Below, in pieces: positions 23,235-52,854 of a stretch of 64,000 bases of DNA; the first letter of the stretch is position 1; every line of letters starts with the position of its first letter. Origin of the DNA: Trypanosoma brucei (taxonomy: Eukaryota); contig CP000071.1 of the NCBI GenBank assembly GCA_000002445.1, positions 1,216,001 to 1,280,000 on the forward strand, written 5' to 3'. The notes beneath the pieces are model-generated. The model was given only the letters and a program-made list of their open reading frames with translations, did no database searches and was not told the origin of the DNA. The position numbers and the translations under genes were made by a program.

Positions 23235-23259
23235 GTGTGTGTGTGTGTGTGTGTGTGTG
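23235..23259. repeat. (GT)12 microsatellite
   Basis: gtgtgtgtgtgtgtgtgtgtgtgtg read directly. Confidence 0.9.
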
Positions 23260-24149
23260 GGAGGGGGAACAAAATATATACAAAAGCACGTAAGCAATAG
23301 CGGAATAAGGAGAAACTCACACGCACATTTCATCAATACACTAAAGGCACATATTTTAAAATTAAATAAATACAAGAAGAATGGATGATAAACAAAACAT
23401 ATGAATGGAAAGAGGAAATGAAAAGAATAAAAACAAAAAAGAAAAGAACGAAATTCAGTTTTTATTTTTTTTCCCCCTTCTGCATACATTCTTCGCTCAT
23501 TGGTGATGATTGCATCCATCACAACTTCTTCAGAGGCATTTATATTCCGCTTTATTTAATGCTATTTGCGAAATTATTTGTGCTTTACGAATGCCGCGAC
23601 AGGAAAAAAAAAAGAAAAAGATTACGACACTCCACCTTGTTTTTTTTTGCTCACAAGGAGCAGAAATTATGTTGTGACAAATATGATGGATATACCCTCC
23701 TCTGAAAGTGTGAAGTACACAAATATAAGAGAAACAAGAAAAAAAAGGGGGGGAACAAAAAAAAAACTAAACTAAAACTGAAAAAAAAGAAAAAAAACAC
23801 ACACAAACACACAAACACACAAACACATAAACACACAAACAATAGGCCAAAAAAAAAACACATATATATTGGCATTGATATGACCAAATATATTGTTAGC
23901 CTAAAGGCAAGGAAGTAATTGAAAGAACCAAATAAAAAAAGATAACGTATGAAAATAAATACAAAAAAAATGGGGGAAATATAAGCAGTCAAATACACAA
24001 ACCCGTTTCACAGGAAGGGGAAACGAAACAAAATGGAATGAAACGAAAGAAACTTCAGCAAAAGGGGAATATATCGTTGATTTGTAGATTATTTCATTTT
24101 TTCCCTTCCTTATTTAAAAGAAAAATACATCTCTGTGTAATATAATGTA

Positions 24150-24175
24150 ATATATATATATATATATATATATAT
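24150..24175. repeat. (TA)13 microsatellite
   Basis: Read directly. Confidence 0.9.
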
Positions 24176-28960: not shown

Positions 28961-29473
28961 GGATATGTAATTATATATGATTATATATATATTTTTTTTT
29001 CTTTTTTTTCTTTATATATATATATATACGTATATGTATTTATATATACTATGTGAAAAAATATGTTGTCGTATCCCTCACCCCCTCTCTTTACTAAAAG
29101 AAAAAAAAAGGTGGGTACCAATTCGTCCCTTCGAAATCAAATGGGGTAAAACAAGCAAACAAACAAAAAAGAAGAGGCAGAACAGAGAGTGCGTAATAAC
29201 AGGTTTCGATGCAAAGAGTATACAAGTGGCAAAACCTCAATTTTACTCCCCCCCAAAAAAAAAAATAATAATTCCAAATTGGAGATTCCACTGAAACAAC
29301 GACACCAAAAATAATCTTGGGGCGCTCATTCCGTGCACCACATCTGAAAATATGACATTTATATATGCACTTATATTTGTAAGAAATTGAGTGAATTTGA
29401 AAGGATGTTATAGGGTAGAAGATTACCTACCAGAATTATTTCAGGTGCCAAACCCACCTTAATCATTCCTCTT

Positions 29474-29504
<31 letters not shown>

Positions 29505-35194: not shown

Positions 35195-35872
35195 TCAAGA
35201 AAGATCATACGCGGCTTCGTCGGCGTCTTCGTCTGGAATGGATTCCCTCTCATACGCCTCATCGGCATCCTCGTCATCAACAAATAGTTCCTTATCCATT
35301 TGCCATAAGTCCCAACCACGAAGTTTGCCCTCGCCGGCTTTCGCCTTCCGCACACGAGCGGCATCCGCCTCGGCTGCCTCCTGTCGCTTGGCCGCTTTCC
35401 AGGCTTGAAAACTTTCCTCCGTAACGGGTGTGAGATCACTGCGCCCCTTCAATGCTTCACGTTCCGCCTCCAGCTGTTCCTCTAATCGGCGCTCATCGTA
35501 TTGCACCTCGTCAAAGTCCTCTGGTCTGAACAGGTATTCATCAGGGGCGCAACCGAGATTTTTGTCGACCTCTTCACCTTCTGCGTTGTTGGCACTTTCC
35601 TCTTGCTTCGATTTGTCCTGTTTATTGACGGTAGAAACGTCCTTGAAGAGGCGAGCCATCTCCATCTCGAAGGCCTTCTTCTCCTCACGGGCCTTTCGTT
35701 TTGCTTCAAGATCCTCATTACGCTTACGGTCATTGGGGTTTCCTTGATTGACACTTTTGGAAATGGATTGAATGTAGGACTGTACCTTCGAGCTTCTGTT
35801 CTTATTCTTCAACCCAAACGTTTTGTCTTCGACAATCTTTTCCCGCTTCTTCTGCTCAGCCTTCTTGCCCAT
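35195..35872 (-). CDS. DRG-family regulatory protein (DFRP1/ZC3H15/TMA46)-like protein lacking the CCCH zinc fingers (225 aa)
   Basis: N-terminus [25 protein letters not shown] matches ZC3H15 (..[23 protein letters not shown]..). The C-terminal block [32 protein letters not shown]...[11 protein letters not shown] matches the DFRP block [30 protein letters not shown]...DDDEEADDTRY. The ORF has no cysteines, so the two C3H1 fingers normally between these blocks are absent. Confidence 0.6.
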   Translation of the reverse strand: [225 protein letters not shown]

Positions 35873-36920: not shown

Positions 36921-39900
36921 TTAACGCCGTACTCTCTCGAACCAGCGATCTTCATCTCCTATGATATCCGAACTGTTGGAAATTGCAACACGGCCTACAC
37001 GTCTTACCCCGGAAGTACTTCGGACTCTTGGACGAGTAGTCAATTCGGCCTCCGCCTCTTCATCGTCGTAGCTCACTTCCCTAACAGCCGCGTCTCCTTG
37101 TAGACGCGAGGGCGATGGTTGAGGTGACGATTGGAACGATGGTGATGGGGGGCGTCTAGTGGGTGGAGTCCTTCTTATCGGCCGCCTAACCGCTTCCTCT
37201 TCCTCTTCTTCTATTTCATCCACCTCATGATTCATGACGGGGGGCGCAGGTCTGCGGGTGATGTAACCCCTTCGTGGAACTGGGGCTGGTGGTATCTCAC
37301 TTGAAGGTACGCTCCGGAACGAGTCAGGTACAAACTTTCGATCGGGTTGAGATGAAGGGCGACGAGGAGCTCCTTCAACACCGTCACCACCCCTCTCCAT
37401 AGCTTGAAGTCGATCCCGTTGCTCCCGCCCACGCGTTGGTGGCGGGCCTCCTCTTTTTCCATTTGCACTCGCAAACAGAGGTTGTTGTGGCCTCTTTTTC
37501 GCTTCGTGGAACTCTGCTTGCTCGTTCACCTGCTCCTCCTCGACTTCTTCGTACTTTACCTCTTCCTCATCAACCGCTTCTCCATCCGCCATCTCGACCT
37601 CCTCCTCCTCCTCCTCCTCCTCCTCTTCCACTTCTTCCTCTTTCATGGCGGTACTCCTGGAGGGCGGTGACCTCGACTTTCCACCCCTTCCTGATTTAAC
37701 CACAACCTTTGTTTCTTCACCTTCCATTTCGGTTCCCTGAAGCGTATTGCCCACCGTCTGGGGAATTTGGGAACTACCATGTTTTGTTGACGAATCCCTT
37801 GAAGCAATACCCCGTCGTGCGGGTGCCGCTATCTCCTCCATTTCGTCAAAATCATCATCATCGTCAGCCTCTGGGAGTAACTGTACAAGCGTTGGCGTAA
37901 GCAGTGCCTCGAGGTCGTCACGGTTGGTCAGAATGTCGTGAACCACAGAAACATCAAACTCCTCTATGGCTTCCACAAGACTAGAGACACTCTCGCACTG
38001 AGCTATTGCATTCGCAAGTCCTAGCGGTTCAGCAAGCTGATAAAGACGCTTTTTCTCTGCCACTGAGAAAGGCCCTTCGGTGTCAATACTAACAATGGAT
38101 GTGTTTGCGTTACTCATGGCAGTTGCTCTGTTGGTTCCACTGCCGCCGCTAATGGAAGTGGCCAAAATGTGGTAATGCACGACGTTTACACGGGTTAGAA
38201 TCTGCTGATCAAGCACGTGAAGCACCCCAAGCATCGCCTCAGCAAAACGACAACGAATGTCTTCTTCACGAACAGAACTCTTGAGAGATGTTTCGTATAA
38301 GTGCAGCGTGGTTCCCATCAATGCGACGACACTACACCCCGAGTTGAAGTCAATTGCCGGCCGAATGGGCGTGAAACGACACTTTTTATTCGCGAAGAAT
38401 GCTGTAAACGCCTTAACGGCTTCATCAACCTTTTCCGCCGTCATGTCAGTTACGTTTTTACCACGCCGGGACCGGTACGGACGCCGATCAGATGAGAGAA
38501 GAGGAAAACCAAACGGAGGTACATCACGCACATCAACCGTAACGGGATGCCCACGCGAAATGGTACGCAACAAAACAGCAGCGTGTATTAGTGCCTCTAC
38601 ACCCTTTTCTTTGTAGAATCGGACGGACGCCACGTCGGCTGTGGAGGCCTCACGCGCTTCTGCGTAGCTGTTATACGCAGCCCACACCTGCTTCAATGCG
38701 GCAATCTCCGCCGTATCGTTACGCGATAAACTTGTCGAACTGAAGGCACTATAAAGGGCGAACGGATCCACCTGGGAAATCTCGTCGTCGATTGGTATGA
38801 CGAAGCCTCTCTTCTCGTCCTCCCTAACGTCCGGTAGATGCAGATAGCCATCTGCACTGCTAAACTGGTGAAGCATCAGGGCGGTAAGGCGCGCTAAAGA
38901 CTCTCTCTCTTTCTTGTTGGGCGGTGAAACAGTTGTTGCGGATGCGGTCGCAGCATTTTCGCCACGCTGCTCCTCCTCGACATCGGCATTGTGGTGTCTA
39001 CCTTTTTTCTGCGGACTGTCATCAGTGCCCCTCTTCTTATGTCGGACTCTCATCGCCTTCGGGTCGGAAGCTTCCGCTTTCACATTCTCCGGGGTCGCTA
39101 CCGGATTCAAGTTTCTATTGCCCCGCACGTATGGGGCGGGAGCAAACTCCTGCTCTGTCTCCTCCAAGAGGCGTGCGATCTCAGCATCCTCATCTGTATG
39201 TACAGTCTCAGCAGCCTTCTCATTTTTCTTGCTATTGCTTGCGGCCGCAGCCACTTTATCTTCCTCTCCCTCCCCGAAACCCTCCCCAGCAGCCAACTCT
39301 ACTTGTCTCGCATGCCTCTTTCCTCTGTTCTTCGGTGACTTGTTAAACTTGTTACCAGAGGCATCAGTTTTGTCTTCTCCCTCCTCGGTTGCTGACGCCG
39401 CACTCGCTTCTTGGCTTTTGTTCTCTCTCTTCTCTCCAGCAGCTTCACTAGCTGCAGCTGCCACAGCCCCTGGGAGTGCCGCCTGCATCCCCGTGATAAG
39501 TGGTGCGAGTATTTTCCTGTTGCCCTTATTCGCTACGAACTCTTCAATTACAGCAGCCTGTATTGTTTTTGTTAACCACATAATCACCTGGTCCTTCTGT
39601 GACTCAGCAGGTTGCCGTGCCATCGTGGCATACGCTTCTTCTAAAACGCCCCGGGTATACATCGACACAGGAACTCGCTCCCGGTTCTCATCCCAACGAC
39701 CCACCGTCGTTATACCCGCAAGACGGAGCGCTCGCGCGTCTTTGCACACCTGATAGCGTTCCGAGGCAAGAACGACATCCAACCATTCGCGGCGGCCGCG
39801 TAAGGCCGTAAGTTGTCGCCGTGGGACCATTGCGACAAAATCAAGCATGGACACGTCCTCAACATCAGAGGCGCCGGAATCAATCAACAGCTGTACGACA

Positions 39901-40271
39901 CCCCGCAACGTGTCAGTACGTATACCACTCCCACCGGGTTCTAGTTCAGGAATCAGTACCTGTTCGATTGAACACTGATGCGGCAATGTGTGCGGAATGT
40001 TACCGCCATTAGTTGGGGTCATATTTGAAGACGTGGAGTGGTAACGAAAGCTTCCACTTAGGCCCGTAGCACATAAGCTTCTGCGTCGTAATCCATTCGT
40101 CACAGTGGTGAGGAGTCCAACGCACGCCACATGTTTTGGGGCCAGAGAAACAAGATTACGGCGAAGCATGGCTTTTGTTCGTTCTACTCCCCTCACACTT
40201 TTAAAGGCTCCGGTTCGTTCCACTGTGTGTGATCCGGTTTGGTTTCCAGGACACGTGGAGTTGAAAACCAC
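36921..40271 (-). CDS. Large conserved hypothetical protein, paralog A (1116 aa as ORF; probable start at the internal MLRRNLVSL...), with acidic poly-Glu and Arg/Pro-rich C-terminal regions
   Basis: ORF 36921..40271(-). It shares three modules with the downstream gene 41778..46847: an N-terminal block (LLIDSGASDVEDVSMLDFVAMVPRRQLTALRGRREWLDVVLASERYQ...ARALRLAGITTVGRW), a central block (PPFGFPLLSSDRRPYRSRRGKNV...AFFANKKCRFTPIRPAIDFNSGCSVVALMGTTLHLYE...RFAEAMLGVLHVLD) and a C-terminal block (LEALLTPTLVQLLPEADDDD). The internal MLRRNLVSLAPKHVACVGLL... looks like a mitochondrial presequence. The (CCT)n tract at 37598-37626 encodes poly-Glu. Confidence 0.6.
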   Translation of the reverse strand: MVFNSTCPGNQTGSHTVERTGAFKSVRGVERTKAMLRRNLVSLAPKHVACVGLLTTVTNGLRRRSLCATGLSGSFRYHSTSSNMTPTNGGNIPHTLPHQCSIEQVLIPELEPGGSGIRTDTLRGVVQLLIDSGASDVEDVSMLDFVAMVPRRQLTALRGRREWLDVVLASERYQVCKDARALRLAGITTVGRWDENRERVPVSMYTRGVLEEAYATMARQPAESQKDQVIMWLTKTIQAAVIEEFVANKGNRKILAPLITGMQAALPGAVAAAASEAAGEKRENKSQEASAASATEEGEDKTDASGNKFNKSPKNRGKRHARQVELAAGEGFGEGEEDKVAAAASNSKKNEKAAETVHTDEDAEIARLLEETEQEFAPAPYVRGNRNLNPVATPENVKAEASDPKAMRVRHKKRGTDDSPQKKGRHHNADVEEEQRGENAATASATTVSPPNKKERESLARLTALMLHQFSSADGYLHLPDVREDEKRGFVIPIDDEISQVDPFALYSAFSSTSLSRNDTAEIAALKQVWAAYNSYAEAREASTADVASVRFYKEKGVEALIHAAVLLRTISRGHPVTVDVRDVPPFGFPLLSSDRRPYRSRRGKNVTDMTAEKVDEAVKAFTAFFANKKCRFTPIRPAIDFNSGCSVVALMGTTLHLYETSLKSSVREEDIRCRFAEAMLGVLHVLDQQILTRVNVVHYHILATSISGGSGTNRATAMSNANTSIVSIDTEGPFSVAEKKRLYQLAEPLGLANAIAQCESVSSLVEAIEEFDVSVVHDILTNRDDLEALLTPTLVQLLPEADDDDDFDEMEEIAAPARRGIASRDSSTKHGSSQIPQTVGNTLQGTEMEGEETKVVVKSGRGGKSRSPPSRSTAMKEEEVEEEEEEEEEEVEMADGEAVDEEEVKYEEVEEEQVNEQAEFHEAKKRPQQPLFASANGKRGGPPPTRGREQRDRLQAMERGGDGVEGAPRRPSSQPDRKFVPDSFRSVPSSEIPPAPVPRRGYITRRPAPPVMNHEVDEIEEEEEEAVRRPIRRTPPTRRPPSPSFQSSPQPSPSRLQGDAAVREVSYDDEEAEAELTTRPRVRSTSGVRRVGRVAISNSSDIIGDEDRWFERVRR
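37598..37626. repeat. (CCT)n trinucleotide tract encoding poly-Glu in paralog A
   Basis: cctcctcctcctcctcctcctcctcct, in frame as EEEEEEEEE on the minus strand. Confidence 0.9.
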
Positions 40272-41777
40272 ACCGGGCCTATCCGTCGCACCCTCGTTCC
40301 TCCCTTTTTTTTCTCTTTAAAAGGATGGAAGATGTATTGATAAGAAATGTTTGTCTACTGTATGCGCAAAAAAAAACACATATAGAAGGAGAAAAGCGGA
40401 GAAGGAGAACGATCGTAACGCGGCCCTCATAGTGGGTACAGTGACAATCACAAGAAAAAAGCGCGTGCTCCCAACAAGGTATATACTTTTGTACAAGTAG
40501 TGTATGACAAAAAGGGGGTGGGGATAAAACAGAATCACATATGGGAGTGGAATAGAAGAAAGGATGAATGACCCAAACATAAGACGGAGGAGAGGGGAAC
40601 ACCAAACAAAGAAACAAGCGAATGAGAAAAAAAATACAAAAAGTAAGGAAAGTGGTCGTATGCAACAGGACGGGCGGGCCCTCACCCCAGTCGCCGTTTT
40701 CTCTATCCTTCGCACCCTTTTCGCTTTCCCTCATTGGGTCAAACCATCGCCGTCATGCTTTTTCGTTGATTGAAAATCCATTTAGACACTTATGAACGTA
40801 AATAAATATATTTATATATATCACAACGTCGCGCACATACTTATAGAAGGGGCATGCGCCTTTAAGTGCGGTTACTGGCACCGCATGACCTGGCTTCCTC
40901 TCACTCAGTGGTCACTGCGGTAGCTCTGCAGTTGGATGACACACAGGGGGGGGGGGAAATAGGAGGGAGAACTCTGCGTAAAGATCCAGCACCACCTTGC
41001 GTAGGCCAAACGACACGACATCGGCCTTCCAGGCGTAAACGAACTCATAAAAAGAAAAGATTAATCCACGTTGCGAATATATAAAATGACATGAATACGG
41101 AAAGAGATCTAACAAAGGAAGCCACGTACCTTTCACTTCATTACTCACTTGTCTTTAATTTTAATGCATCTATGAAACTTGCGTGGCGGTTGCGCCGCAC
41201 GGCCACACACAGCAAACTGCCGTCTTGGTCACGAAGCGCACGCAAGCCAGGGGAACAACTGGTATCTGCTTCCAAAGGCAGAAACCGGCGAAGAATACCA
41301 AAGTAATACTTAAAGTAATAACAATAAGTGCATCAGTGATAGGTCCATCAAAAGAAAAACTAGGACGAAACACTGCTTAGACGTATCACCCTTCCTCTAT
41401 CGTTCTATTTACGTATGCGTTCATCATGTTGTAGGTTTGCGGGTCTGCACTTACATACTCCGTGCGTAAGTCTGCACACGACAATGTGAAGTAATGCAAC
41501 GAAGCTGGGCGACCATCAGGAAGTCACGGGATAAGGGAAAGATACAATTCAAGCAATCGGTCGAGAGCCGACACTACCAAATGAAGTAAAGTGAAACCAA
41601 AACTCTGAGCTCAGGTAAGTAAATGCAGCAAAGTATGCAAACATCATACGAGGTAAGGAAGAACACACTGCAGTTTTTACGGTGGTGCGATGCGAAGTCC
41701 AGCACTGTTTTCTTACCACCTTCTACTCTGTTCCACACTGCTATCAGTAAACGTTCCGTGGGAAAACGCCAAGAAGC

Positions 41778-44700
41778 CTAAACCATACGCAGCGCTGATT
41801 TCTTCTGCTTTTTCTTCGCATTCTTATCTGTCTTTGATGCAGCCGCCACGCTTGCACGTGATGTAGTGCGCTTGGCTGGTTTTGCCAATTCCCTTGATTT
41901 GTTCCTTCCACGCGATGAGGCCGCTGTGGTGGAGGATGAGGAAGAGGACCTTTTCGGTGTTACTGACTGTACAGTCCTCTTTAGATTTGCTTGCTGCTGC
42001 TTTGGCTTCTTTTCTGGCACATTTGAACGCTGGAGAGGCTTTCTGCCTCTTTTCCCGGTAACAGCCTTGGTGCTACTACCCTTCCCGTCAGTACCACTAC
42101 CGCTGCCGCTACCACTGACCCTGCCTCTACTTCTACCTCTACCTTTGTTATCCCTAGTTGCCTGTTCTACGTCGCTTTGTTCCTCCACCTCTACCTCTTC
42201 TACTTCCACCACCTCTATCTTTTGGCCACTAACTTTTCCGCGCTTCACCTCTTCCTGCACCTTCTTAAGTTCTGCAGCTGGCTCCCTTGCGGTACTAGTA
42301 GCCCTGTTCCCCATGGCACTATGCGTTACGCTGGAGTTACTTTTCCTATTGAATGGTAAAGGGGCTGTAATCACTGCAGGTCGGGAAGTCGAGGCGCTTG
42401 GGTACGCAGCAATGGGGGCTGTCGCGCTCGACCTATCACTCTCTTGACTGGAAGCCGCCGCCGGAGTAACGATATCATGCAGCCACGCCAGTGCATCTTC
42501 TTGAGAAGCCGTGGCCGCTGGATGCGGTGTATTCTCGACGGCAGGTATGCTGCTACTAATAGGATTTCCCACTGCTACACTTTCCATTGAGGCTGTTGTT
42601 GCTGATGGGTCCTGTGCAGGCGTTGCGGGATACTCCTGCGCACTACTGGAGAAGGCGTCATTCATCATAGCCTCCAACAACTCTGCTGAATCTTGTATAG
42701 GATCACCGCCAACAAAATCATCGCCGGTAGGGGCATCGTGAGGTACGGCAGCACCGCTTTCCACTCGTTCCATCTCTGGTCTCCGTGATCCCTCGTGCTC
42801 ATCATCAAGTATGTCCACCATCAGGGCATTTGGTGGGAGCACTTCCGCCCGGTATGGTGGCAGAACGGTGGCATCTGGAACCAGCTGCATAAGCGTCGAC
42901 GACAGCAACGACTCGAGTTCTGCCTGGGAGGCCACCACATCTTGATGGACATGGACGTGGTAAACGCTTTCTAACTCGTCCAGAATATCATTAAGGGTTC
43001 GGAACTCCTTGTCGATGCCAAGGATCTCCTGCAAAACGCGTAGCCGGTCAATGACACTATCTTCAAACACAGCACTCAAGTCTAAGAAGTAGGGAACAAT
43101 GGGGACAGGTGTCGCGGTGAACATCTCATCTGTTGTCAGCACCGACACCCGACTATTCGCCCCTTCACCACCGTTGCTGACGCCACCCATGCCGCTATTT
43201 GTAGATGATGCTTGATCCACGGAAACAACACTAACATAGTGGACTGTTTGTATCCGATGTTGTGGCAGAATATTCTTCTCAATGCAGTGCAGAACACCAA
43301 GCAGAGCTTCCGCAAACCGATAGCTGATATTGCGAAGCGCTTCCGTCGTGGTGACCAAGTCGTACAATGCCAACGTTGTGCCATCAACAAAAACAACATC
43401 ACACCCACCGTTCAACCCCACTGACGGTCGGAACGGGAAACGCTCTAGTAGTGTATTTGCAAAGAACGCCCTGTACGCCGATCCAGCTTTTCGGACAGTC
43501 TCTGGTGTCGCTTTCATAATGGTCGGTATTGCGCTTCCCCTTTGTTTGGATCTTGTTGGTGAGGCAAGTAACGGGAACCCATAAGGAGGAATCTTAAGGT
43601 TCAGGTCTATCTGCACCCCAGAAACTGCTACGGCGCGTAGAAGCAGCGCCCCATGCAGAAGCACACGCAATGCATCACGTTTGCGCACGCTTGTTGTACC
43701 CATCGGACTCACAACGGCACAGTACTCAGCCCACACTTCGCCCCAAGCCCTTACGATGGGTGTCTCCCGAGGGGATTCCAAGGGATCCTGATGAGAAAAT
43801 ATGGTAAAGAGCGCAAATGGATGGACTTGACAGGCTGTGTGGTTGTAGGGAACGATGAGCCCGTCCCGTTCATCCTGCAGCGTCGTATCGACGTCTCTGG
43901 TTAGGTACCCGGTAGGACTGCTTAACTGCCGCTGTAGAAGTTCTACAAGTCGCATCCGCGCTTCAGGCGGATTCCGCAGAAGGTAATTTCGCTGGGGCAG
44001 GTCCGCAAAAAGTTCGCTCGGGACATAGCTTCGAAGCAGGGGATGTGTGCCACTCCATTGCATCAGCCGTGGTGCACCACCTCGCAAGTCCATAAGCGCG
44101 GCACGCCCGGACCAGAAGACATCCAATGTGTAACCCAACAACCCCGGACAGTTCTTTAGCACCTCGTACATCAGACCAGAGAAACCAAGTCGGAAGCGCT
44201 GGTGGAGGGCGTGCAGCACGGAAACCAGTGGTAATACACGCAGTCGTTGCTGTAATCCGATGCCACTTGCTAAAGGGACAAAATAGCGCCGAACAGGGGC
44301 GTCAGCGTGAACGAGAAGGACCTTGCTCACATGATGTCCCGTAAAAACCATGTTCAGCTGCCCTAGCGCAACCGTCACCTTTGACAAAGCGGTCTCCACC
44401 ATATCTTGTGTAAACTGCTGTTCGTGTTGCGCGTGATGACCAACCCCGGAAGGCGCTGGGGATGGAATGCCTGCAGCCTTTATGTCACTGGCCGCACCCT
44501 TTTCGACGTTTTGAGGTGAATGGTATTGGGGATTCTGTGGCACTCCAACCCCCATCGTTGCTTCACCCGCTGACAATTGGAGTGTACTGTTTGTGTCCAT
44601 GCTATTCATTAGGCCACCAGGATACGTCAGCTGAGGGATGTGGTGCTCCATGCAGTCCAGTACTCGATCGATGTCATCCACAAGAATCGCGTGCAGCGGC

Positions 44701-46847
44701 GGTGGTGCACCTTCGCAGTGACCTCGGATGCGGATACGTTTCTGGTATAGTTCCCACGACCAATTGTTGCGGTTGGCCCACCACATGACGGACTGCGGAG
44801 CGCGGGTGAAAATTTCCTCTGTCCGAACAAGGTAAGGACAAGAGGCAAGAGCGACACGAAACCAGAAACGCGGGGCGAATGCCAGTGGGTGATCATCCAG
44901 TCCCGGTGCAAACGGTGTGGTGGACCCACTATAGCGTACAGTGATGGCGGTCCTACCGCTTTCTGCCATACGTTTCGAGAGGCGCTCAAGAACGGAAGTC
45001 TTGCCGCACGAGTGCCCCGCCTCAACGAAATGGAGCTGCTTCGACGCGGACGACGACATATAGTAGCCGCTCAACACGGAGAGTAGACGCTCCTCCACAA
45101 GCTTCCCCGCACCAAAAAGTTGCTGCAAACCCAGAGCCTCTGCTGCACTAAATCCTTTACCCAGTCGATCGGCACCCTTAATGGCGTCAAACAGTGTGGT
45201 ACGGGCTACACGTATGGTATGACGCTTCAGCCTGTGAAGGACGGAAAAATACTCATTCTGCACGGGGTTTCCCTGCCAGAGCTCGGGAGATGAGGACGGT
45301 TGCGGACTGCCACACCACTCACCGAGGGTCACGTTATAGTTTGTGCTACCTGTGAGGAAGACTCCACCTGCCAAAGTGGGAGCCGCCACATCCAATGCCG
45401 ATGGTGCGTTCCCGCTCACAATCATACTGTTACCACCGGGGTGCGCCCCTGAAAACCTCGTGCTATCCGAGTGTGTGAACATCTGGGTACTCATTGCAGT
45501 GCTAGGGCTAAACCCCCACTCGCCGGTGTTATGAAAAACAAAATAGCGTACGGGGATACTCTGCAACTGCAATGCCGATGCAGTCTGTCGCAGCAGGCCG
45601 GGAAGACGCTCCAGTGCGAGAAATCCGTAGTCCCGCAATGGGTGTAACTCCTTTGGCATATTGGGAGCTTGTGTCTCCAGCACCCTTAACATGGCATCAC
45701 TTAGAGTTGCATATGCTTTTTCGCGAATTTCTGCTTCAGCCTGCGGGTCGAGAGAAGCTTTCATCGCCTCATTGTCTTGTGCACCCATGTGCCGCTGCAT
45801 CATGTATTCCCTGCGCACACTTGCTATCACCTTCTTAACTAGACGGTGGTAGTGTTCTAATGTGCATATGTGCCCCGTTGAAGCGCCGTCAAATCCAATA
45901 CCGCCGCTCTGCAACATTGCATGGTTAGCTGGTATATTCAGTGAATCGAGGATAAATTTACCAATAATGTCAGCAGCCCACAATACCAGCGTATCCTCCA
46001 GCATGTTACTTGTATTTACAAGTTTAACCACCTCGTCTACGTACGTTTCGACGCTTTTATCCACGGCGGCATCCAGTAGACTGCGTGTACAGGAAGAAAC
46101 TTTTACCAGGTTGGGCTGCTCTGCCCACTGATAAAGTGTTGTGATGCCCGCCAGCCGCAGCGCCCTCAGATCATAATGTGGCGACTCCAATGAAAGACGG
46201 GAAACCTGTTTGTAGTGTGAGCTCTCCAGCAACCATTCGAGCCATGATCTCTTCCCATTGAGTGCCGCAAGCTGCCTTTTGGGCTGCATAGATGCAAAAT
46301 CCGTCAGGGAAACGTTTTCCACCCCCTCCGCGTTGGGGTCAATGAGAAGCCGCACAATATCGGGCAGCATCTCGGCTGCAAGGGATTCATCCGCTTTAAT
46401 GATATCTCCAATGCGTGTATCTAGTGTGGGGCCTGTAAGCACTGGCATTCGACGAGTGGCGGTGGCACGCATTGGCCCACATTGGGCCGCTGTGCTCTGC
46501 AGCACGCCAACGTTCTCCGGCATGATTCGTGCGCCCGCTCCCACTCTACTTGCCTCTTCCTCCATCATGGTAATGCTGAGGATGCCATCTAACTCTGTGG
46601 ATGAAGGCATACTCAACGGGGGTATGGAGGGTTTAACATTTAACATTGACGGCGGCACTGGGGTTGATGCTGCCGGTTTCGTTGTCTGTGCCCCACGGAA
46701 CCATGGTAAATGCGGAACACTATTTCCAGGAGGTGTGTAAGAAATCTTCCCCAAACTTCCAGTGTTATGCACCTGGTGTCTCATCAGTCCAGAAGTCCAT
46801 TGAACCGGCACCGCGATGACCGGCGAGATGACACGACGTCGCAGCAT
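41778..46847 (-). CDS. Large conserved hypothetical protein, paralog B (1689 aa), with a predicted P-loop NTPase (Walker A) insertion and an RG/KR-rich basic C-terminal tail
   Basis: ORF 41778..46847(-). It is homologous to paralog A over the N-terminal (LLIDPNAEGVENVSLTDFASMQPKRQLAALNGKRSWLEWLLESSHY...LRALRLAGITTLYQW), central (PPYGFPLLASPTRSKQRGSAIP...AFFANTLLERFPFRPSVGLNGGCDVVFVDGTTLALYD...RFAEALLGVLHCIE) and C-terminal (LESLLSSTLMQLVPDA) modules. Between them is a roughly 500-aa insertion containing VEAGHSCGKTSVLERL, which fits [AG]-x4-G-K-[ST]. N-terminus MLRRRVISPVIAVPVQW... may be a mitochondrial presequence. The C-terminus is GRGRSRGR...KKKQKKSALRMV. Confidence 0.6.
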   Translation of the reverse strand: MLRRRVISPVIAVPVQWTSGLMRHQVHNTGSLGKISYTPPGNSVPHLPWFRGAQTTKPAASTPVPPSMLNVKPSIPPLSMPSSTELDGILSITMMEEEASRVGAGARIMPENVGVLQSTAAQCGPMRATATRRMPVLTGPTLDTRIGDIIKADESLAAEMLPDIVRLLIDPNAEGVENVSLTDFASMQPKRQLAALNGKRSWLEWLLESSHYKQVSRLSLESPHYDLRALRLAGITTLYQWAEQPNLVKVSSCTRSLLDAAVDKSVETYVDEVVKLVNTSNMLEDTLVLWAADIIGKFILDSLNIPANHAMLQSGGIGFDGASTGHICTLEHYHRLVKKVIASVRREYMMQRHMGAQDNEAMKASLDPQAEAEIREKAYATLSDAMLRVLETQAPNMPKELHPLRDYGFLALERLPGLLRQTASALQLQSIPVRYFVFHNTGEWGFSPSTAMSTQMFTHSDSTRFSGAHPGGNSMIVSGNAPSALDVAAPTLAGGVFLTGSTNYNVTLGEWCGSPQPSSSPELWQGNPVQNEYFSVLHRLKRHTIRVARTTLFDAIKGADRLGKGFSAAEALGLQQLFGAGKLVEERLLSVLSGYYMSSSASKQLHFVEAGHSCGKTSVLERLSKRMAESGRTAITVRYSGSTTPFAPGLDDHPLAFAPRFWFRVALASCPYLVRTEEIFTRAPQSVMWWANRNNWSWELYQKRIRIRGHCEGAPPPLHAILVDDIDRVLDCMEHHIPQLTYPGGLMNSMDTNSTLQLSAGEATMGVGVPQNPQYHSPQNVEKGAASDIKAAGIPSPAPSGVGHHAQHEQQFTQDMVETALSKVTVALGQLNMVFTGHHVSKVLLVHADAPVRRYFVPLASGIGLQQRLRVLPLVSVLHALHQRFRLGFSGLMYEVLKNCPGLLGYTLDVFWSGRAALMDLRGGAPRLMQWSGTHPLLRSYVPSELFADLPQRNYLLRNPPEARMRLVELLQRQLSSPTGYLTRDVDTTLQDERDGLIVPYNHTACQVHPFALFTIFSHQDPLESPRETPIVRAWGEVWAEYCAVVSPMGTTSVRKRDALRVLLHGALLLRAVAVSGVQIDLNLKIPPYGFPLLASPTRSKQRGSAIPTIMKATPETVRKAGSAYRAFFANTLLERFPFRPSVGLNGGCDVVFVDGTTLALYDLVTTTEALRNISYRFAEALLGVLHCIEKNILPQHRIQTVHYVSVVSVDQASSTNSGMGGVSNGGEGANSRVSVLTTDEMFTATPVPIVPYFLDLSAVFEDSVIDRLRVLQEILGIDKEFRTLNDILDELESVYHVHVHQDVVASQAELESLLSSTLMQLVPDATVLPPYRAEVLPPNALMVDILDDEHEGSRRPEMERVESGAAVPHDAPTGDDFVGGDPIQDSAELLEAMMNDAFSSSAQEYPATPAQDPSATTASMESVAVGNPISSSIPAVENTPHPAATASQEDALAWLHDIVTPAAASSQESDRSSATAPIAAYPSASTSRPAVITAPLPFNRKSNSSVTHSAMGNRATSTAREPAAELKKVQEEVKRGKVSGQKIEVVEVEEVEVEEQSDVEQATRDNKGRGRSRGRVSGSGSGSGTDGKGSSTKAVTGKRGRKPLQRSNVPEKKPKQQQANLKRTVQSVTPKRSSSSSSTTAASSRGRNKSRELAKPAKRTTSRASVAAASKTDKNAKKKQKKSALRMV

Positions 46848-47322: not shown

Positions 47323-48753
47323 TTACAAAACGAACTTGTACGGCTTTCCGCTCATACCAGGAGCAATCACCTCAGCATTCTCCCAAATTTCCGCAGCCCT
47401 TTCTTCGTCCAGTCGAGCTTCTTCGATGCGACCCAACGCTTCGCGTGCCTCAGCACGGAGTTGAAACAACGTCGCACACCGCTTCTGATTAACAAATCGT
47501 AATGCCCTTGTTAAATCGTCTTCAGCACGGTCGTATGATTTGAGTTTGCAATACACCATACCGCGGGCAGCGAGGACGGCTCCAATCGCCTTGCGATGCC
47601 TTTCTTTCTTAAGATCCGCTCCTTCATTGATGAAACTCATGCACGCCGTTAGGGACTTCAGGGCTCCTGCTGGGTCATCTTCATACACTTGTATTTTAGA
47701 CCGGGCGTACATTGCCATAACAAGTGCCATAAGCTTGTCGAACTTCGCATGCATATCAACACCAAATTTTTTCTGAATGTGTGCCCGCACCTTTGGGTGC
47801 TCCAACCATTTTTGAAAGAGGTCGATGTCCCGCATGTAGCGATTCACAAATTCGTGCGCTTTCTTGTAGTCCTGATTTTCTTCAATGATCATATGCGCAC
47901 CGTGCAGCAGGCCCCAGTGCACGAAACCATTGAACTCCTGCCGCTGCTGGATGTTTTCCTGCCCCTCACGTTGCGGTTGAAGGAGGTAATCCACTTGGTC
48001 CTCAACAAGTAAAGGGTTACCAAATGCTTCTAACCGCCGTCTGTCCTCATCAACAGCCTTCTGGATGTCAAACATAACTTGTCCATCCACAAAACCCTCG
48101 TCATCAATCTCATCCACTGCGGGATCGAAGCTTGGTGGCGGAACAAACCGACGGGTTTCATCAAACACCTCATCAGCCATATGAAAATCCGGATTGAGGA
48201 AGAAGTTATCGCCAGCATAACTCAGCTCCAACGGCTTGTCAGGGCCGTGCACCTCTTTCATTTCCGGCACAAACATGCCATCAAACTTCTTCTTGTTTTT
48301 GTCTAGCGGAGAAGCAAACATTCTCCCCGACCAGTTTTGATTTTCCTCCGGCCACCAGCGCGCCATTTCAGACTCCGATTGCTCCGGCAATGGCTCTTCA
48401 CCACGCCGCTGGGCATCTGTTGCCCGTTGCTGCTGTTGACGCCGCTGCTCAATGGCAACTGCCTCGCTCTCCCTTCTGGTGTTGTACTGCACACCACCGG
48501 GAGTTGCTGCAGGGGTTGTTGGAGGTGGTCGGGGCGGTGGATTTTGGGACGTCATGCGGCTCGGGACGGAACCACTTGTACTACTGCTTACACCTTCACG
48601 GCCAGATGCATCTTTGCAATCACATAAACAAATACGTGTCAAACTGCAGGTTAAACGCTTCTGCAGAGTGTTGACTAGCACTGGTGTTAACCCCCTCTGT
48701 CTGATGCGGTGGTTGAACCACATAAACTTGTCGCGCCGTTTGTGCCAACGCAA
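47323..48753 (-). CDS. Hypothetical protein with a C-terminal TPR-like helical domain (up to 476 aa; start possibly the internal MTSQNPP...)
   Basis: ORF 47323..48753(-). The C-terminal 200 aa are helical-repeat-like (KAIGAVLAARGMVYCKLKSYDRAEDDLTRALRFVNQKRCATLFQLRAEAREALGRIEEA). The N-terminal 60 aa (MRWHKRRDKFMWFNHRIRQ..., Cys-rich) look non-coding. Confidence 0.5.
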   Translation of the reverse strand: MRWHKRRDKFMWFNHRIRQRGLTPVLVNTLQKRLTCSLTRICLCDCKDASGREGVSSSTSGSVPSRMTSQNPPPRPPPTTPAATPGGVQYNTRRESEAVAIEQRRQQQQRATDAQRRGEEPLPEQSESEMARWWPEENQNWSGRMFASPLDKNKKKFDGMFVPEMKEVHGPDKPLELSYAGDNFFLNPDFHMADEVFDETRRFVPPPSFDPAVDEIDDEGFVDGQVMFDIQKAVDEDRRRLEAFGNPLLVEDQVDYLLQPQREGQENIQQRQEFNGFVHWGLLHGAHMIIEENQDYKKAHEFVNRYMRDIDLFQKWLEHPKVRAHIQKKFGVDMHAKFDKLMALVMAMYARSKIQVYEDDPAGALKSLTACMSFINEGADLKKERHRKAIGAVLAARGMVYCKLKSYDRAEDDLTRALRFVNQKRCATLFQLRAEAREALGRIEEARLDEERAAEIWENAEVIAPGMSGKPYKFVL

Positions 48754-50034: not shown

Positions 50035-52854
50035 CTAAGCGGTAAAGGAAGGAGTAACAGTTTGTGAAGGAGTCGACAGGGAAAGGACTGCAGCCTCATA
50101 AAGAGAGAGAAGCACCATAAACTGATCCACTCTCAAGCGCTTCGTAGGTTCTAGTTCTAGAAGACCAGCTATCAGTCTCTGCATATGCAGCAGTTCTTGT
50201 GAATGTCTCGGCAGCGTGGGCATTACAGCTGCCCGTTCAGCAGCCTTTACGTAACAGTTTTGTGTGTGGTCCACATCAGACCGGCACTTTGGGTTTTGGC
50301 ATGGAGGATACAACCGCCGAGAGTACATCAGTTCGTATAATGTCGCCCCAAGGCTGTAACAATCGGTGGCGCGGCTACACATTTTGTGTTTGAGCGCGCG
50401 AAGGTCCATATAATCGTAGGTGCCAATAGCCCCCTTTACTCTATCACTATTTTTTGGCCCCACTATGCGACAATTACCAAAGTCACTCAGATAAAAAATA
50501 TATGGGCCGGGAACTGAATCACTCTGTGACCATAGTGCTGCCGGCTCCGTGGCCGGTCGACCTGAGGAGCCCAGTTGCGTCCCCGTCCCTAATGTACATT
50601 GCGTTTGTTCATATTGCTGTTGGGAATACTCTTGGGAGCACATACTTTTGCGTCTGTAAAGGATATTACTTGGCTTAACATCAAGATGCAAGATCCCAAA
50701 TTCGTGCATTGCTTGCAGTACCGTACCAACGCAAAAGCCAACGTCCCTGACGGCATCTGTGTTATGAGGAAAGTTTTCCAGGTCCCCATCGCACAAATCT
50801 GTTACAAGAAATATGGTTGCATCACACCGCATCGTATCCTCCGTGGTTATGGTCAAAAACCGCGGTAATCTCACACTTTCACCTTGTTTACCCCCATCCA
50901 AACTCCCGTTCACGTCACTGTTTGACCATTTCTCTCCGTATTCATCTTCCCTTCCATCAGGTAGTATTCGTTGCGCCTGACACAACTGTTCCCCCTGTGG
51001 GACAAGTGATCCTTGCCATTTCACGGAGATTGCGACATCGGGAGGAAGACACTCTTGGCCCTGCACAAAGAAGGCACTATGGAGTGGAAGAACGTATGGG
51101 ACTCCGTGCTTTCCCAAAAAGCGCATGACGACGACTTCGCGCAAAGTAGAAAGTGCATCGCTAACGCTGCCTCGACTCTGCAAACTTAAAGGACACGACT
51201 TCACAGCGACAACATCTCCTCTCAACGTACGGCAACGCCATACGAACCCAAAACTACCCTCGCCAACATATTCAACATCCTTGAACGCACCCCAGAACAC
51301 TCCTTCTTCAAGACAGTATTTTTTTGAAATGACGTGTTCCACTGCCTCATAAAACGATTCACGAGTAAAGGTTGTGTGAAATAACGGACGCAACTCTTCT
51401 ACAAGACGAGTATCTCTCAAAGTGCTGAATTCGTGATCCACCGGCGTACTTTCACTCACTGCTTCCGCACTACTGACCTTCATTGTGCTCGACATAACGG
51501 AGAAGCTATTCAAATCAACGGGTTTACACCGTTCAGTAGGAAAAAGGAGATCCAATATACTACCCGTTGGTGAAAATGTTTCTTTCCATTGGGGACATGT
51601 TGATGGTTTTGGCTCCGGCGTGTGGTTTTCAGGGGAAGGCAAATCCTCGGCGAGGCAATCGCGCGGACCTCCTCCATTCGCCGTGGCGGTGACGAGTTGG
51701 GCTGCCCCTGTCGCTGGTGTCTCTGCTCTGCTGCTACTATCACTATCACTGTCATCAACAAGGATGTATTCTCTGCCACCACTACTGGCACATGAGCAAT
51801 AGCTTTGGCACGTCGCAAAAAGATGATCATCAGAAAATGCAATGGACGATTGTTGCGTGGAAGGTAGAGGCGGTAGTGGTGACGCCGTATTTGCTGCAGC
51901 TCCTCGAAGGGTGACTTTTGTGGTGTGGTCTTCATCAGACGATGCATAGCTATCATCACAAATAGTGTAGTTGCTTGTAGATGAACTTCCTCCGCGCGGA
52001 CCCGTTCCATGGGCACGTAGAGGTTCTTTGCGCTCGCGAGGCGTTTGGTCAAGCACCCCTGAAGCGGCATACCGACACTGGTTTTCTCGAAGCTGTTCAC
52101 CGCGGGTGAATGATGGTGCATTATGCTCTCCCCTGGCAGTAGACCAAGTGCCGTGCGATTCCTCTGACCTCCCCGGAAAATATGACGTCGTACATAGCGC
52201 ATCCTCAGCATCGTCGACGTCTTCGAAGGAAATACAATGCCCTTTCGAGGGCTTGGTGAGTCTTGTGGTTGTTATATGCCGGACAGGGGCAGCTAAATGG
52301 CGGTCGACTGTGGTGGAAGTGGCACTACCCACACCCTTCACCCAGCCCATTTTGCCATATGCAGGACTAATCCCAGTGTTGGCGACTAAAGCGTTACTGC
52401 AACCAAAACTACCGCTACTCCCCTCTTCCTCACGTGCTGAGAGGCGCTCTGCCACATACGCGATGGGGCGGGGTGAAGTATTAGAGTTTTGAGCGGTACC
52501 CCTGCAATCTCTGAACCGGTGATGTGAGGTCATCATAGCACCCCAGCCGTCCACACATGACCCCATGCGATGAGGCATGAACCTCGATACTGAAGGAGTT
52601 CCGGCCCCAATTACTGATGGTCGCACATTATGGGAGGATACAACACCGCTTCCACCTGCTGCAGCTCCTACTGATATTGCTATTTCTGGATTTGACAGAA
52701 GTGACTCCCTACCCGACACCTCATTCGGTACGGCTTCATTGTCGTCACTGCAACTGATACTCCAGCTGCGTTCACGATTCCGTTTGGTTTGACGTAATCC
52801 CATCGAGGAGTTCGCTGTTGAGGTACCCCCCTGTGGTCGTCTGATTTCACTCAT
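50035..52854 (-). CDS. Atypical Ser/Thr protein kinase with a long Ser-rich N-terminal extension (939 aa)
   Basis: The kinase subdomains sit in the C-terminal third: Gly-loop YVGEGSFGFVWRC, β3 Lys VAVKSC, catalytic loop LHLDVKPSNILY (HLD rather than HRD), DFGNCRIVG, and a G-T-Y-D-Y-M activation segment that lacks a canonical APE. There are large inserts between subdomains. Confidence 0.75.
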   Translation of the reverse strand: MSEIRRPQGGTSTANSSMGLRQTKRNRERSWSISCSDDNEAVPNEVSGRESLLSNPEIAISVGAAAGGSGVVSSHNVRPSVIGAGTPSVSRFMPHRMGSCVDGWGAMMTSHHRFRDCRGTAQNSNTSPRPIAYVAERLSAREEEGSSGSFGCSNALVANTGISPAYGKMGWVKGVGSATSTTVDRHLAAPVRHITTTRLTKPSKGHCISFEDVDDAEDALCTTSYFPGRSEESHGTWSTARGEHNAPSFTRGEQLRENQCRYAASGVLDQTPRERKEPLRAHGTGPRGGSSSTSNYTICDDSYASSDEDHTTKVTLRGAAANTASPLPPLPSTQQSSIAFSDDHLFATCQSYCSCASSGGREYILVDDSDSDSSSRAETPATGAAQLVTATANGGGPRDCLAEDLPSPENHTPEPKPSTCPQWKETFSPTGSILDLLFPTERCKPVDLNSFSVMSSTMKVSSAEAVSESTPVDHEFSTLRDTRLVEELRPLFHTTFTRESFYEAVEHVISKKYCLEEGVFWGAFKDVEYVGEGSFGFVWRCRTLRGDVVAVKSCPLSLQSRGSVSDALSTLREVVVMRFLGKHGVPYVLPLHSAFFVQGQECLPPDVAISVKWQGSLVPQGEQLCQAQRILPDGREDEYGEKWSNSDVNGSLDGGKQGESVRLPRFLTITTEDTMRCDATIFLVTDLCDGDLENFPHNTDAVRDVGFCVGTVLQAMHEFGILHLDVKPSNILYRRKSMCSQEYSQQQYEQTQCTLGTGTQLGSSGRPATEPAALWSQSDSVPGPYIFYLSDFGNCRIVGPKNSDRVKGAIGTYDYMDLRALKHKMCSRATDCYSLGATLYELMYSRRLYPPCQNPKCRSDVDHTQNCYVKAAERAAVMPTLPRHSQELLHMQRLIAGLLELEPTKRLRVDQFMVLLSLYEAAVLSLSTPSQTVTPSFTA

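What the first reader, a model, noticed from the sequence alone, without database searches (positions are those of the whole stretch)
36921..46847. Tandem divergent paralog pair sharing three modules; the downstream copy carries a P-loop NTPase insertion
The adjacent 1116-aa and 1689-aa minus-strand ORFs share colinear N-terminal, central and C-terminal blocks, for example ...LRALRLAGITT..., ...P(P/Y)(F/Y)GFPLL(S/A)S...AFFAN...G(C)xVV...GTTL(H/A)LY...RFAEA(M/L)LGVLH..., ...L(E/S)(A/S)LL(T/S)(P/S)TL(V/M)QL(L/V)P.... This looks like an old tandem duplication followed by domain gain or loss. Paralog B has a central insertion of about 500 aa containing a Walker-A-like VEAGHSCGKTSVL. Both have Arg-rich, presequence-like N-termini, acidic poly-E stretches and basic RG/KR tails. 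I cannot assign them to a named family by eye. They may be a kinetoplastid-specific pair of organellar or nucleic-acid-associated proteins.
Basis: seen in the sequence. Interest (0 to 1): 0.6.

Follow-up and report, generated by a model that had tools for sequence, protein, structure and literature searches.

The report
Kinetoplast replication paralogs; one carries AAA+ ATPase
These are two already described neighbouring Trypanosoma brucei genes for mitochondrial-DNA (kinetoplast) proteins, and the larger one, recently shown to be needed for kinetoplast DNA replication but reported to have no recognisable domain, contains a very divergent AAA+ ATPase domain of the ORC/Cdc6/TnsC type.

Summary
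The window is T. brucei TREU927 chromosome 8. The two minus-strand genes are Tb927.8.4230 (A, 1082 aa from the annotated ATG, 119 kDa, pI 5.4) and Tb927.8.4240 (B, 1689 aa, 184 kDa, pI 8.3). They share two colinear blocks by BLASTP: an N-terminal block (46% identity, E 5e-21) and a C-terminal module of about 350 aa (32% identity, E 4e-44).

The paralogy is already published. A sits at kDNA antipodal sites and is a proximity partner of DNA ligase k-beta (2020 paper). B is a kDNA replication factor (2026 preprint), and its authors found no domain in it.

A most likely lost this module; B did not gain it.

Sequence profiles find no Pfam or PDB family. The folds of the shared modules and any ATPase activity remain untested.

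The parts
41778..46847 (-). Paralog B = Tb927.8.4240 (1689 aa, 183.9 kDa, pI 8.3), a published kDNA replication factor.
   Evidence: ORF. Exact match to XP_847255.1/Q57W11. The preprint links Q57W11 to Tb927.8.4240. Mass and pI.
36921..40169 (-). Paralog A = Tb927.8.4230 (1082 aa, 119 kDa, pI 5.4), an antipodal-site protein and proximity partner of ligase k-beta. The listed 1116-aa ORF (to 40271) starts at an upstream GTG that is an artefact of the bacterial ORF rule.
   Evidence: PMC7314023.
46758..46847 (-). B N-terminus MLRRRVISPVIAVPVQW..., resembling a mitochondrial presequence.
   Evidence: Sequence. MLRRR is conserved in orthologues. Organellar location is published. The cleavage site was not tested.
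45933..46382 (-). B shared N-terminal block (aa 156-305), including LRALRLAGITT.
   Evidence: BLASTP E 5e-21. Alignment of A and B orthologues. No Pfam or PDB match.
45288..45932 (-). B-specific conserved region (aa 306-520), absent from A. Fold unknown.
   Evidence: Conserved among B orthologues. No counterpart in A.
44109..45113 (-). B AAA+ ATPase module (aa 579-913). Predicted elements in order:
- N-terminal helix
- beta1 605-610
- P-loop
- alpha1 616-629
- beta2 634-638
- helical insert 654-704
- beta3 720-724
- disordered loop 742-801
- beta4 831-837
- beta5 852-857
- four-helix lid 863-913
44997..45020 (-). Walker A AGHSCGKT (aa 610-617).
   Evidence: G615 and K616 are invariant, and residue 617 is T or S, in all 13 homologues.
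44673..44690 (-). Walker B AILVDD (aa 720-725).
   Evidence: D724 is invariant. D725 is D in the kinetoplastid sequences and E in the metagenomic homologue (MILIDE). It lies at the end of predicted beta3.
44445..44624 (-). Variable, low-confidence loop (aa 742-801) inserted inside the ATPase module between alpha3 and the helix before beta4.
   Evidence: Unalignable among orthologues. pLDDT below 50.
42870..43964 (-). B shared C-terminal module (aa 962-1326), containing PPYGFPLLAS, AFFAN, GCDVV, GTTLALYD, RFAEALLGVLH and TLMQLVPD.
   Evidence: BLASTP E 4e-44. 14-sequence alignment of A and B orthologues. No Pfam or PDB match.
41781..42230 (-). B C-terminal basic K/R/S-rich tail (aa 1540-1689; 37 K+R). 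Probably binds DNA non-specifically.
   Evidence: Composition. K/R-rich tails are present in all orthologues. The preprint predicts residues 1464-1689 to be disordered. DNA binding is inferred, supported by B's enrichment on an 8-oxoG DNA bait.
39633..39923 (-). A shared N-terminal block (aa 83-179 of the 1082-aa protein).
38904..39632 (-). A charged low-complexity linker (aa 180-422; 38 K+R, 40 D+E), occupying the position of B's ATPase region. The first ~40 residues still align with the end of B's N-block.
   Evidence: The profile of B's ATPase region finds nothing in A.
37866..38903 (-). A shared C-terminal module (aa 423-768).
36924..37865 (-). A acidic tail with a poly-E run and an R-rich end (aa 769-1082; 72 D+E, 49 K+R).
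   Evidence: Acidic E-rich tails also occur in the A orthologues of L001 and L002.

Best explanation
The region holds the tandem paralogs Tb927.8.4240 (B, upstream in the direction of transcription) and Tb927.8.4230 (A), both imported into the mitochondrion and located at or near the kinetoplast DNA antipodal sites.

Shown:
- They share an N-terminal block and a C-terminal module of about 350 aa, neither with a detectable relative outside this family.
- B carries a very divergent AAA+ ATPase module between them, with conserved Walker A and Walker B motifs. Its predicted fold is closest to DNA-bound switch or loader ATPases (TnsC, MuB, Orc/Cdc6, DnaA) and to STAND NTPases.
- A has a charged disordered linker at that position.
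- Published work shows that B is needed for kDNA replication and that A is a proximity partner of ligase k-beta.

Inferred:
- The ancestral protein had the full architecture, and A arose by tandem duplication followed by loss of the ATPase region.
- B works as an ATP-regulated, DNA-associated switch or scaffold. Nucleotide binding at K616/T617 would control its assembly on minicircle or maxicircle DNA, helped by the basic tail. It would thereby control recruitment of replication and repair enzymes at the antipodal sites and disk rim.
- A is an ATPase-less adaptor that uses the same shared modules to hold ligase k-beta there, possibly pairing with B.
For: - Identity: exact protein matches, with masses and pI equal to the published values.
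- Paralogy: BLASTP E 4e-44 and 5e-21.
- Tandem order: kinase, TPR-like gene, B, A, DFRP_C gene. This order is conserved in two divergent contigs.
- Motifs: Walker A and B are conserved in all 13 homologues, down to 22-34% identity.
- Structure: AF2 model with core pLDDT 80-94. The element order is beta1, P-loop, alpha1, beta2, helices, beta3 (Walker B), alpha3, beta4, beta5, then a four-helix lid.
- Foldseek: the top 50 hits are nearly all AAA+ proteins (RFC, ORC, Hda, TnsC), with a few other P-loop and unrelated chains lower down; probability up to 0.99 but best E only 0.02.
- hhalign to a MuB profile aligns Walker A through Walker B in register, P 2.9e-4. Controls with the other two modules give P 0.14-0.3.
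- A lacks the module.
- A distant metagenomic homologue has the ATPase joined to the C-module.
- The preprint reports only a B orthologue in Paratrypanosoma.
- Function: RNAi of B causes kDNA loss that is rescued in a kDNA-independent background, and B has a dynamic antipodal and rim location. A is at antipodal sites and is more than 100-fold enriched with ligase k-beta BioID2. B is enriched on an 8-oxoG DNA bait.
Against: - No Pfam, NCBI-style or PDB sequence model reaches significance. The best are nSTAND_NTPase5 at 0.047 and AAA_16 at 0.12.
- Foldseek E-values are all above 1e-3 and TM-scores are low, 0.25-0.31.
- The model rests on only 13 sequences. A first model from 7 sequences failed, with pLDDT 34.
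- I could not inspect coordinates, so strand order, sensor 1 and the arginine finger are not established.
- The beta4 tip residue T836 is A in several homologues.
- Walker B is DD, not DE, in the kinetoplastid sequences. This fits a slow switch, but also a non-hydrolysing relic.
- A 60-residue disordered loop interrupts the domain.
- No ATP-binding, ATPase, oligomerisation or direct DNA-binding data exist.
- The direction of change (loss in A) rests on few taxa of unknown identity.
Confidence: 0.6

Rival explanations
1. The P-loop module of B is a structural relic (a pseudo-ATPase). It keeps the fold and perhaps binds nucleotide, but does not hydrolyse it. B would then act purely as a scaffold through its shared modules and disordered tails.
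For: Walker B is DD rather than DE in all kinetoplastid sequences. No invariant sensor-1 residue or identifiable arginine finger was found. A long disordered loop lies inside the domain. The paralog A functions at the same place with no ATPase at all.
Against: G615, K616, residue 617 (T or S) and D724 are invariant across sequences that share only 22-34% identity overall, and D725 changes only to E in the most distant homologue. That argues for selection on nucleotide and Mg binding. From general knowledge, DD Walker B motifs are normal in working STAND switches such as NB-ARC proteins.
Confidence: 0.25
2. B gained the ATPase region by insertion after the duplication. The ancestor would then resemble the shorter paralog A.
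For: The module lies between two shared blocks, as an insertion would.
Against: A distant homologue (L003) has the ATPase continuous with the start and core of the C-module. The literature reports only the B type in the early-branching Paratrypanosoma. In A the position is filled by fast-evolving low-complexity sequence, typical of a decayed or replaced region.
Confidence: 0.15
3. The module is a P-loop NTPase of another class (RecA/SF1-helicase-like, or kinase/GTPase-like), not AAA+.
Confidence: 0.08
4. The similarity blocks and the Walker A are chance products of composition.
For: Both proteins are rich in low-complexity sequence. By my estimate, a lone [AG]xxxxGK[ST] is expected about 0.1 times in a protein of this length.
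Against: Composition-adjusted E-values are 4e-44 and 5e-21. The blocks are conserved across orthologues of both paralogs. The motif is invariant in all homologues, lies in the correct structural context, and has a Walker B about 105 residues downstream.
Confidence: 0.01

Closest known systems
Tb927.8.4240 and Tb927.8.4230 as described in PMC7314023 (2020) and bioRxiv 10.64898/2026.01.05.697628 (2026)
   Same: They are the very same genes, by exact sequence identity. The papers already state the paralogy, tandem position, synteny across trypanosomatids, kDNA and antipodal-site location, the ligase k-beta proximity of A, and the kDNA replication phenotype of B.
   Different: The papers report no domain or motif in B apart from a disordered C-terminus. 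Here a conserved Walker A/B pair and a predicted AAA+ fold are assigned to aa 579-913. The difference between the paralogs is explained as presence or absence of that module.
Initiator and target-selector AAA+ ATPases: archaeal/eukaryotic Orc1-5 and Cdc6, DnaA, and the transposition proteins TnsC and MuB
   Different: There is no significant sequence match to any of their Pfam models. No arginine finger or sensor 2 was identified. No winged-helix domain was demonstrated. B has a 60-residue disordered loop inside the domain, is mitochondrial, is much larger, and carries lineage-specific N and C modules.
STAND NTPases (AAA_16, NB-ARC/CED-4/Apaf-1, NACHT, Avs)
   Different: The Pfam scores are far below the gathering thresholds. 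No repeat sensor domain (LRR, WD40 or TPR) follows. Nothing links B to immunity or cell death.
Prokaryotic 'ATPase plus C-terminal restriction-endonuclease-like domain' proteins (Arch_ATPase with DUF234; AAA_14 with DUF4143). This is recalled from memory and serves only as a lead.
   Different: In T. brucei the pattern is not intact: B has D...DLV and A has S...ETS. There was no Pfam hit to DUF234, DUF4143 or any PD-(D/E)xK family. The fold of the C-module was not predicted here.

Membership tests
AAA+ / ASCE P-loop ATPase superfamily | Walker A GxxxxGK[ST] directly after a buried beta strand and before a helix | tested here: met
   AGHSCGKT at 610-617, between predicted beta1 (605-610) and alpha1 (616-629). 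GK[ST] is invariant in 13 homologues.
AAA+ / ASCE P-loop ATPase superfamily | Walker B hhhhD[DE] at the end of beta3 | tested here: met
   AILVDD at 720-725, at the end of predicted beta3. DD in the kinetoplastid sequences, DE in the L003 homologue.
AAA+ / ASCE P-loop ATPase superfamily | Five-stranded alpha/beta core followed by a C-terminal helical lid; structural similarity to solved AAA+ proteins | tested here: met
AAA+ / ASCE P-loop ATPase superfamily | Sensor 1 polar residue at the tip of beta4, and arginine finger or sensor 2 arginine | tested here: inconclusive
   T836 is T in Trypanosoma but A in several homologues. R868 (RLRVLPL) is invariant and lies in the lid, but its role cannot be assigned without coordinates.
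AAA+ / ASCE P-loop ATPase superfamily | Significant match to a curated sequence model (Pfam AAA, AAA_16, Cdc6-type and similar) | tested here: not met
   No family reached its threshold. Best results: YqeC 0.008, nSTAND_NTPase5 0.047, AAA_16 0.12. The PDB profile search gave nothing below E 0.6.
AAA+ / ASCE P-loop ATPase superfamily | Nucleotide binding and hydrolysis | not testable with these tools
   This needs recombinant protein or Walker-motif mutants in vivo.
Initiator clade (Orc/Cdc6, DnaA, TnsC, MuB) | Initiator-specific helical insertion between alpha2 and beta3 that contacts DNA | tested here: inconclusive
   Four predicted helices (654-704), carrying the most conserved sequence of the module (RFWFRVALASCPYLVRTEE), lie between beta2 and beta3. 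Equivalence to the ISM was not checked in 3D.
Initiator clade (Orc/Cdc6, DnaA, TnsC, MuB) | DNA-binding domain (winged helix or HTH) after the lid | tested here: inconclusive
   Only sub-threshold Pfam votes for winged-helix families in the C-module: HTH_43 at 0.03 and HTH_NWD1 at 0.19. No structure is available.
STAND NTPases | NBD-HD1-WHD core with a GxP motif and a C-terminal sensor repeat domain | tested here: inconclusive
Tb927.8.4230/4240 kinetoplastid kDNA protein family | Sequence identity to the published genes and conserved synteny | tested here: met
   Exact matches to Q57W11 and Q57W12. The gene order is conserved in L001 and L002.
PD-(D/E)xK nuclease fold (considered for the shared C-module) | Catalytic D ... 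(D/E)xK motif on adjacent strands | tested here: not met
   B reads GCDVV...LYDLVTT and A reads GCSVV...LYETSLK. Only the metagenomic homologue has D...EAK. The fold itself was not tested.

The most novel reading that the evidence does not exclude
B is the ATP-driven DNA-bound switch of the kinetoplast replication machinery, a mitochondrial, lineage-specific counterpart of Orc/Cdc6 or of the TnsC/MuB target selectors. It would polymerise on free or newly reattached minicircles, and on maxicircles, at the antipodal sites and disk rim, and license or position ligases, polymerases or topoisomerase there. The ATPase-less paralog A would be its partner adaptor for ligase k-beta. The shared C-module would be a degenerate nuclease-like DNA-binding fold inherited from an ATPase-nuclease ancestor.
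Probability: 0.25. Interest if true: 0.75.

Novelty: new member of a known kind. Interest (0 to 1): 0.45.

Why it matters
kDNA replication has many enzymes with known activities. It has no known nucleotide-dependent organiser of the antipodal sites.

The 2026 study that established Tb927.8.4240 as a replication factor could offer no mechanistic handle, because no domain was recognised. Assigning an AAA+ switch-type ATPase, with identifiable Walker residues K616/T617 and D724/D725, turns 'conserved hypothetical' into a directly testable hypothesis through point mutants, ATPase assays and DNA-dependent oligomerisation.

It also gives a rationale for the two paralogs: one with the motor or switch, one without.

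The family is restricted to kinetoplastids. Only 10 hits were found among 1.84 billion representative proteins. That is relevant for parasite-specific biology.

Tried and rejected
- Word-indexed homologue searches with sub-regions returned almost nothing. The B central region gave two T. rangeli fragments. The A C-module gave no hit, not even itself. A orthologues were therefore taken from neighbouring genes on Logan contigs.
- The first AF2 run (7 sequences, aa 520-965) gave pLDDT 34 and was discarded.
- The AFDB50 fold library was unavailable.
- Pfam, PADLOC and PDB sequence or profile searches of the ATPase region, the C-module and the N-block gave no significant family.
- hhalign against a DnaA domain III profile matched only the P-loop (P 1.3e-3, probability 18%). 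The genuine DnaA-MuB pair itself scored only P 9.6e-3, so this shallow-profile test is insensitive.
- I considered a helix-hairpin-helix reading of the N-block (LRLAGITT). It has no database support.
- I considered a PD-(D/E)xK reading of the C-module.
- I first guessed that the pair might be the RNA-editing MRB8170/8180 paralogs. This was rejected, because the exact matches are Tb927.8.4230/4240.
- The organisms behind contigs L001-L004 could not be named.
Full report
**Identity and observation**

The region holds two long minus-strand ORFs, at 36921-40271 and 41778-46847. Exact-sequence look-up identifies them as T. brucei brucei TREU927 chromosome 8 proteins. These are XP_847254.1/Q57W12 (1082 aa, starting at Met35 of the listed ORF, window 40169) and XP_847255.1/Q57W11 (1689 aa). 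A 2026 preprint links Q57W11 to Tb927.8.4240 and names its neighbour Tb927.8.4230. The computed masses and pI are 119.0 kDa / 5.4 and 183.9 kDa / 8.3. These equal the published values.

BLASTP with composition adjustment gives two colinear HSPs:
- A117-213 vs B156-261: 46% identity, E 5e-21.
- A457-802 vs B962-1326: 32% identity, E 4e-44.

**What was already known**

PMC7314023 (2020) found Tb927.8.4230 as the only specific BioID2 partner of kDNA ligase k-beta. It localised the protein to the antipodal sites and noted its homology to the adjacent Tb927.8.4240.

The 2026 preprint (10.64898/2026.01.05.697628) recovered Tb927.8.4240 in a genome-wide kDNA-loss screen. It reports:
- RNAi causes kDNA shrinkage and loss. 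The growth defect is rescued in a kDNA-independent background.
- The protein moves between antipodal sites, disk rim and nabelschnur.
- The pair is syntenic across trypanosomatids. Only the larger gene is found in Paratrypanosoma, and neither is found in Bodo.
- No domain or motif could be found apart from a disordered C-terminus.

A DNA-lesion pull-down study lists Tb927.8.4240 among the proteins enriched on an 8-oxoG bait. None of these texts mentions a Walker motif or an ATPase.

**Conservation of the pair**

An exhaustive HMMER search with a profile of B 520-965 against 1.84 billion representative proteins found only 10 proteins. All are B-type homologues or fragments, so the family is lineage-restricted.

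For two divergent B homologues (about 30% identity in the ATPase core) I retrieved the contigs. Both show the same gene order as the window: protein kinase, a ~450-aa gene, B, A. L001 also shows the DFRP_C gene that follows A in the window. Compare the window neighbours. The downstream genes are clear A orthologues. They have LQLAGLTT, PPFGFPLLSSD, GCSVV...TLHLYETS and TLLSLLPEE, plus acidic E-rich tails. The tandem pair is therefore old and stable. The organisms could not be named.

**The P-loop module**

B has AGHSCGKT at 610-617 and AILVDD at 720-725. Thirteen homologues were compared: Trypanosoma, Leishmaniinae, Angomonas, three divergent Logan sequences and a metagenomic protein, P0026. 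In all of them GK[ST] is invariant. It is preceded by a hydrophobic stretch (LHFVEA). The hhhhD[DE] motif is conserved about 105 residues downstream, as DD in the kinetoplastid sequences and DE in P0026.

Further conserved elements are MVFTG (832-837), RLRVLPL (868-874) and YEVLKNCPGLLG (894-905). From my knowledge of the families, these resemble the beta4, hxLxPL and GxP elements of Cdc6/AAA_16/STAND proteins. So does the LFGxxKLVEDRL helix before Walker A.

Sequence models do not recognise the region. There is no Pfam hit at threshold; the best results are YqeC 0.008, nSTAND_NTPase5 0.047 and AAA_16 0.12. The PDB profile searches returned nothing significant: best E 0.61 with the 7-sequence profile, and thymidine kinase via the P-loop at E 1.7 with the 13-sequence profile.

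**Structure prediction**

A first AF2 run with 7 sequences failed (pLDDT 34). With the 13-sequence alignment of B 565-938, the model reached mean pLDDT 64.7 and pTM 0.60. Core blocks scored 80-94, and the low values were confined to the variable loop and the termini.

The order of elements is: helix, beta1, P-loop, alpha1, beta2, a four-helix insert, beta3 (Walker B), alpha3, a disordered loop (742-801), a long helix, beta4, helix, beta5, and a four-helix bundle.

Foldseek returns the same kinds of proteins (RFC, ORC, TnsC, Hda) with probabilities up to 0.99. Its best E is only 0.02 and TM-scores are low.

As a check independent of AF2, I built MuB and DnaA profiles from fetched homologues and ran hhalign:
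- The B profile aligns with MuB from Walker A to Walker B in register (84 columns, P 2.9e-4).
- It aligns with DnaA over the P-loop only (P 1.3e-3).
- The N-block and C-module profiles score P 0.14-0.3.
- The genuine DnaA-MuB pair scores only P 9.6e-3.

This test is therefore insensitive, and its support is modest. The NTPase call stands, refined to a divergent AAA+ module of the initiator/STAND kind. Sensor 1, arginine finger and ISM equivalence remain open.

**Loss or gain**

A profile of the B ATPase region finds nothing in A. At that position A has a 243-residue charged low-complexity linker.

The metagenomic homologue on L003 aligns with B from the lid into the C-module (B 856-1094, E 5e-10). 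A frame-shifted continuation carries the C-module core, GCDVVHVDGATVRLYEAKT...LLGLWDCIV. The ATPase and the C-module are thus contiguous in a distant relative.

Together with the published B-only state of Paratrypanosoma, this favours an ancestral full-length protein and loss of the ATPase in A. The few taxa available leave this at roughly 75-85% in my judgement.

**The shared modules**

Alignments of both modules across A and B orthologues show strong shared motifs. They have no Pfam or PDB relatives, even at E 10.

The C-module core has a pattern compatible with a nuclease-like helix, three strands, helix, strand unit. The L003 homologue has D...ExK, but both T. brucei paralogs lack the intact motif.

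**Mechanism**

Shown:
- Identity and paralogy of the two genes.
- Conserved Walker motifs and a predicted AAA+ fold in B.
- Absence of that module in A.
- From the literature: kDNA location, the replication phenotype, ligase k-beta proximity and lesion-DNA enrichment.

Inferred:
- B is an ATP-regulated, DNA-associated switch or scaffold. Nucleotide state would control its assembly at antipodal sites and the disk rim, with the basic tail providing non-specific DNA affinity.
- A is an ATPase-less adaptor using the same modules.

The main rival is that the P-loop is a non-hydrolysing relic.

**Verdict**

The pair itself is already known, and the finding is largely ordinary in that respect. The useful new element is the domain assignment for a protein whose recent characterisation found none. 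It is a new, very divergent member of a known superfamily, and the claim can be tested directly with Walker-motif mutants.

Noticed in passing
window 40170-40271: The 1116-aa ORF listed for paralog A begins at a GTG 34 codons upstream of the annotated ATG. The annotated start gives MLRRNLVSL..., which mirrors B's MLRRRVISP... The extension is an artefact of bacterial start-codon rules.
   Followed up: yes
L003:88-2359 (JGI metagenome 3300046002): A distant homologue has its ATPase ORF (88-1704) followed by a +1-frame ORF (1730-2359) that continues the C-module. This is either a frameshift or assembly error, or a real split. Its C-module core carries an intact D...ExK pattern (GCDVV...LYEAK) that both T. 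brucei paralogs lack. The reading frame is open to the contig start, so the protein is probably longer.
   Followed up: partly
L001:16974-21143 and L002:16810-20010 (Logan SRR22803237, SRR29674549): Very divergent, unnamed organisms carry both paralogs in tandem, with the same flanking genes as T. brucei. If any of them is an early-branching trypanosomatid or a bodonid, it would push the duplication earlier than the literature proposes.
   Followed up: partly
window 16000-32000: This is a long low-GC stretch (0.30-0.40 against about 0.50 elsewhere). It has only two long ORFs (18854-19549 and 27077-28960, neither with a Pfam hit), short AT-rich tandem repeats and pyrimidine-rich shadow ORFs. 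It looks like unusually long intergenic or UTR sequence within one minus-strand transcription unit.
   Followed up: partly
window 38914-39753 (+) and 41866-42447 (+): Long plus-strand ORFs lie antisense to the two genes. Their translations are low-complexity S/A/L/F-rich and are shadows of the coding strand, not genes.
   Followed up: no
window 15381-16139 (-): A 252-aa ORF has HAEFVAVE ... PCIMCAAML. By eye this is a cytidine/tRNA-adenosine deaminase zinc motif, possibly the ADAT2-type tRNA deaminase. I did not scan it.
   Followed up: no
window 35195-35872, 47323-48753, 50035-52854 (all -): The flanking genes are a DFRP_C (DRG-family regulatory protein) gene, a 476-aa protein with weak TPR hits, and a 939-aa protein kinase. 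The kinase on one side of the pair is also found in L001 and L002, and the DFRP_C gene on the other side in L001; their ~450-aa intervening genes show no TPR hit (a DnaJ hit in L002).
   Followed up: yes
B aa 140-156 of the ATPase profile vs A aa 126-142: The strongly conserved RFWFRVALASCPYLVR in B's ATPase insert weakly resembles RREWLDVVLASERYQVC in the shared N-block of A (hhalign E 0.24). This is probably chance.
   Followed up: no
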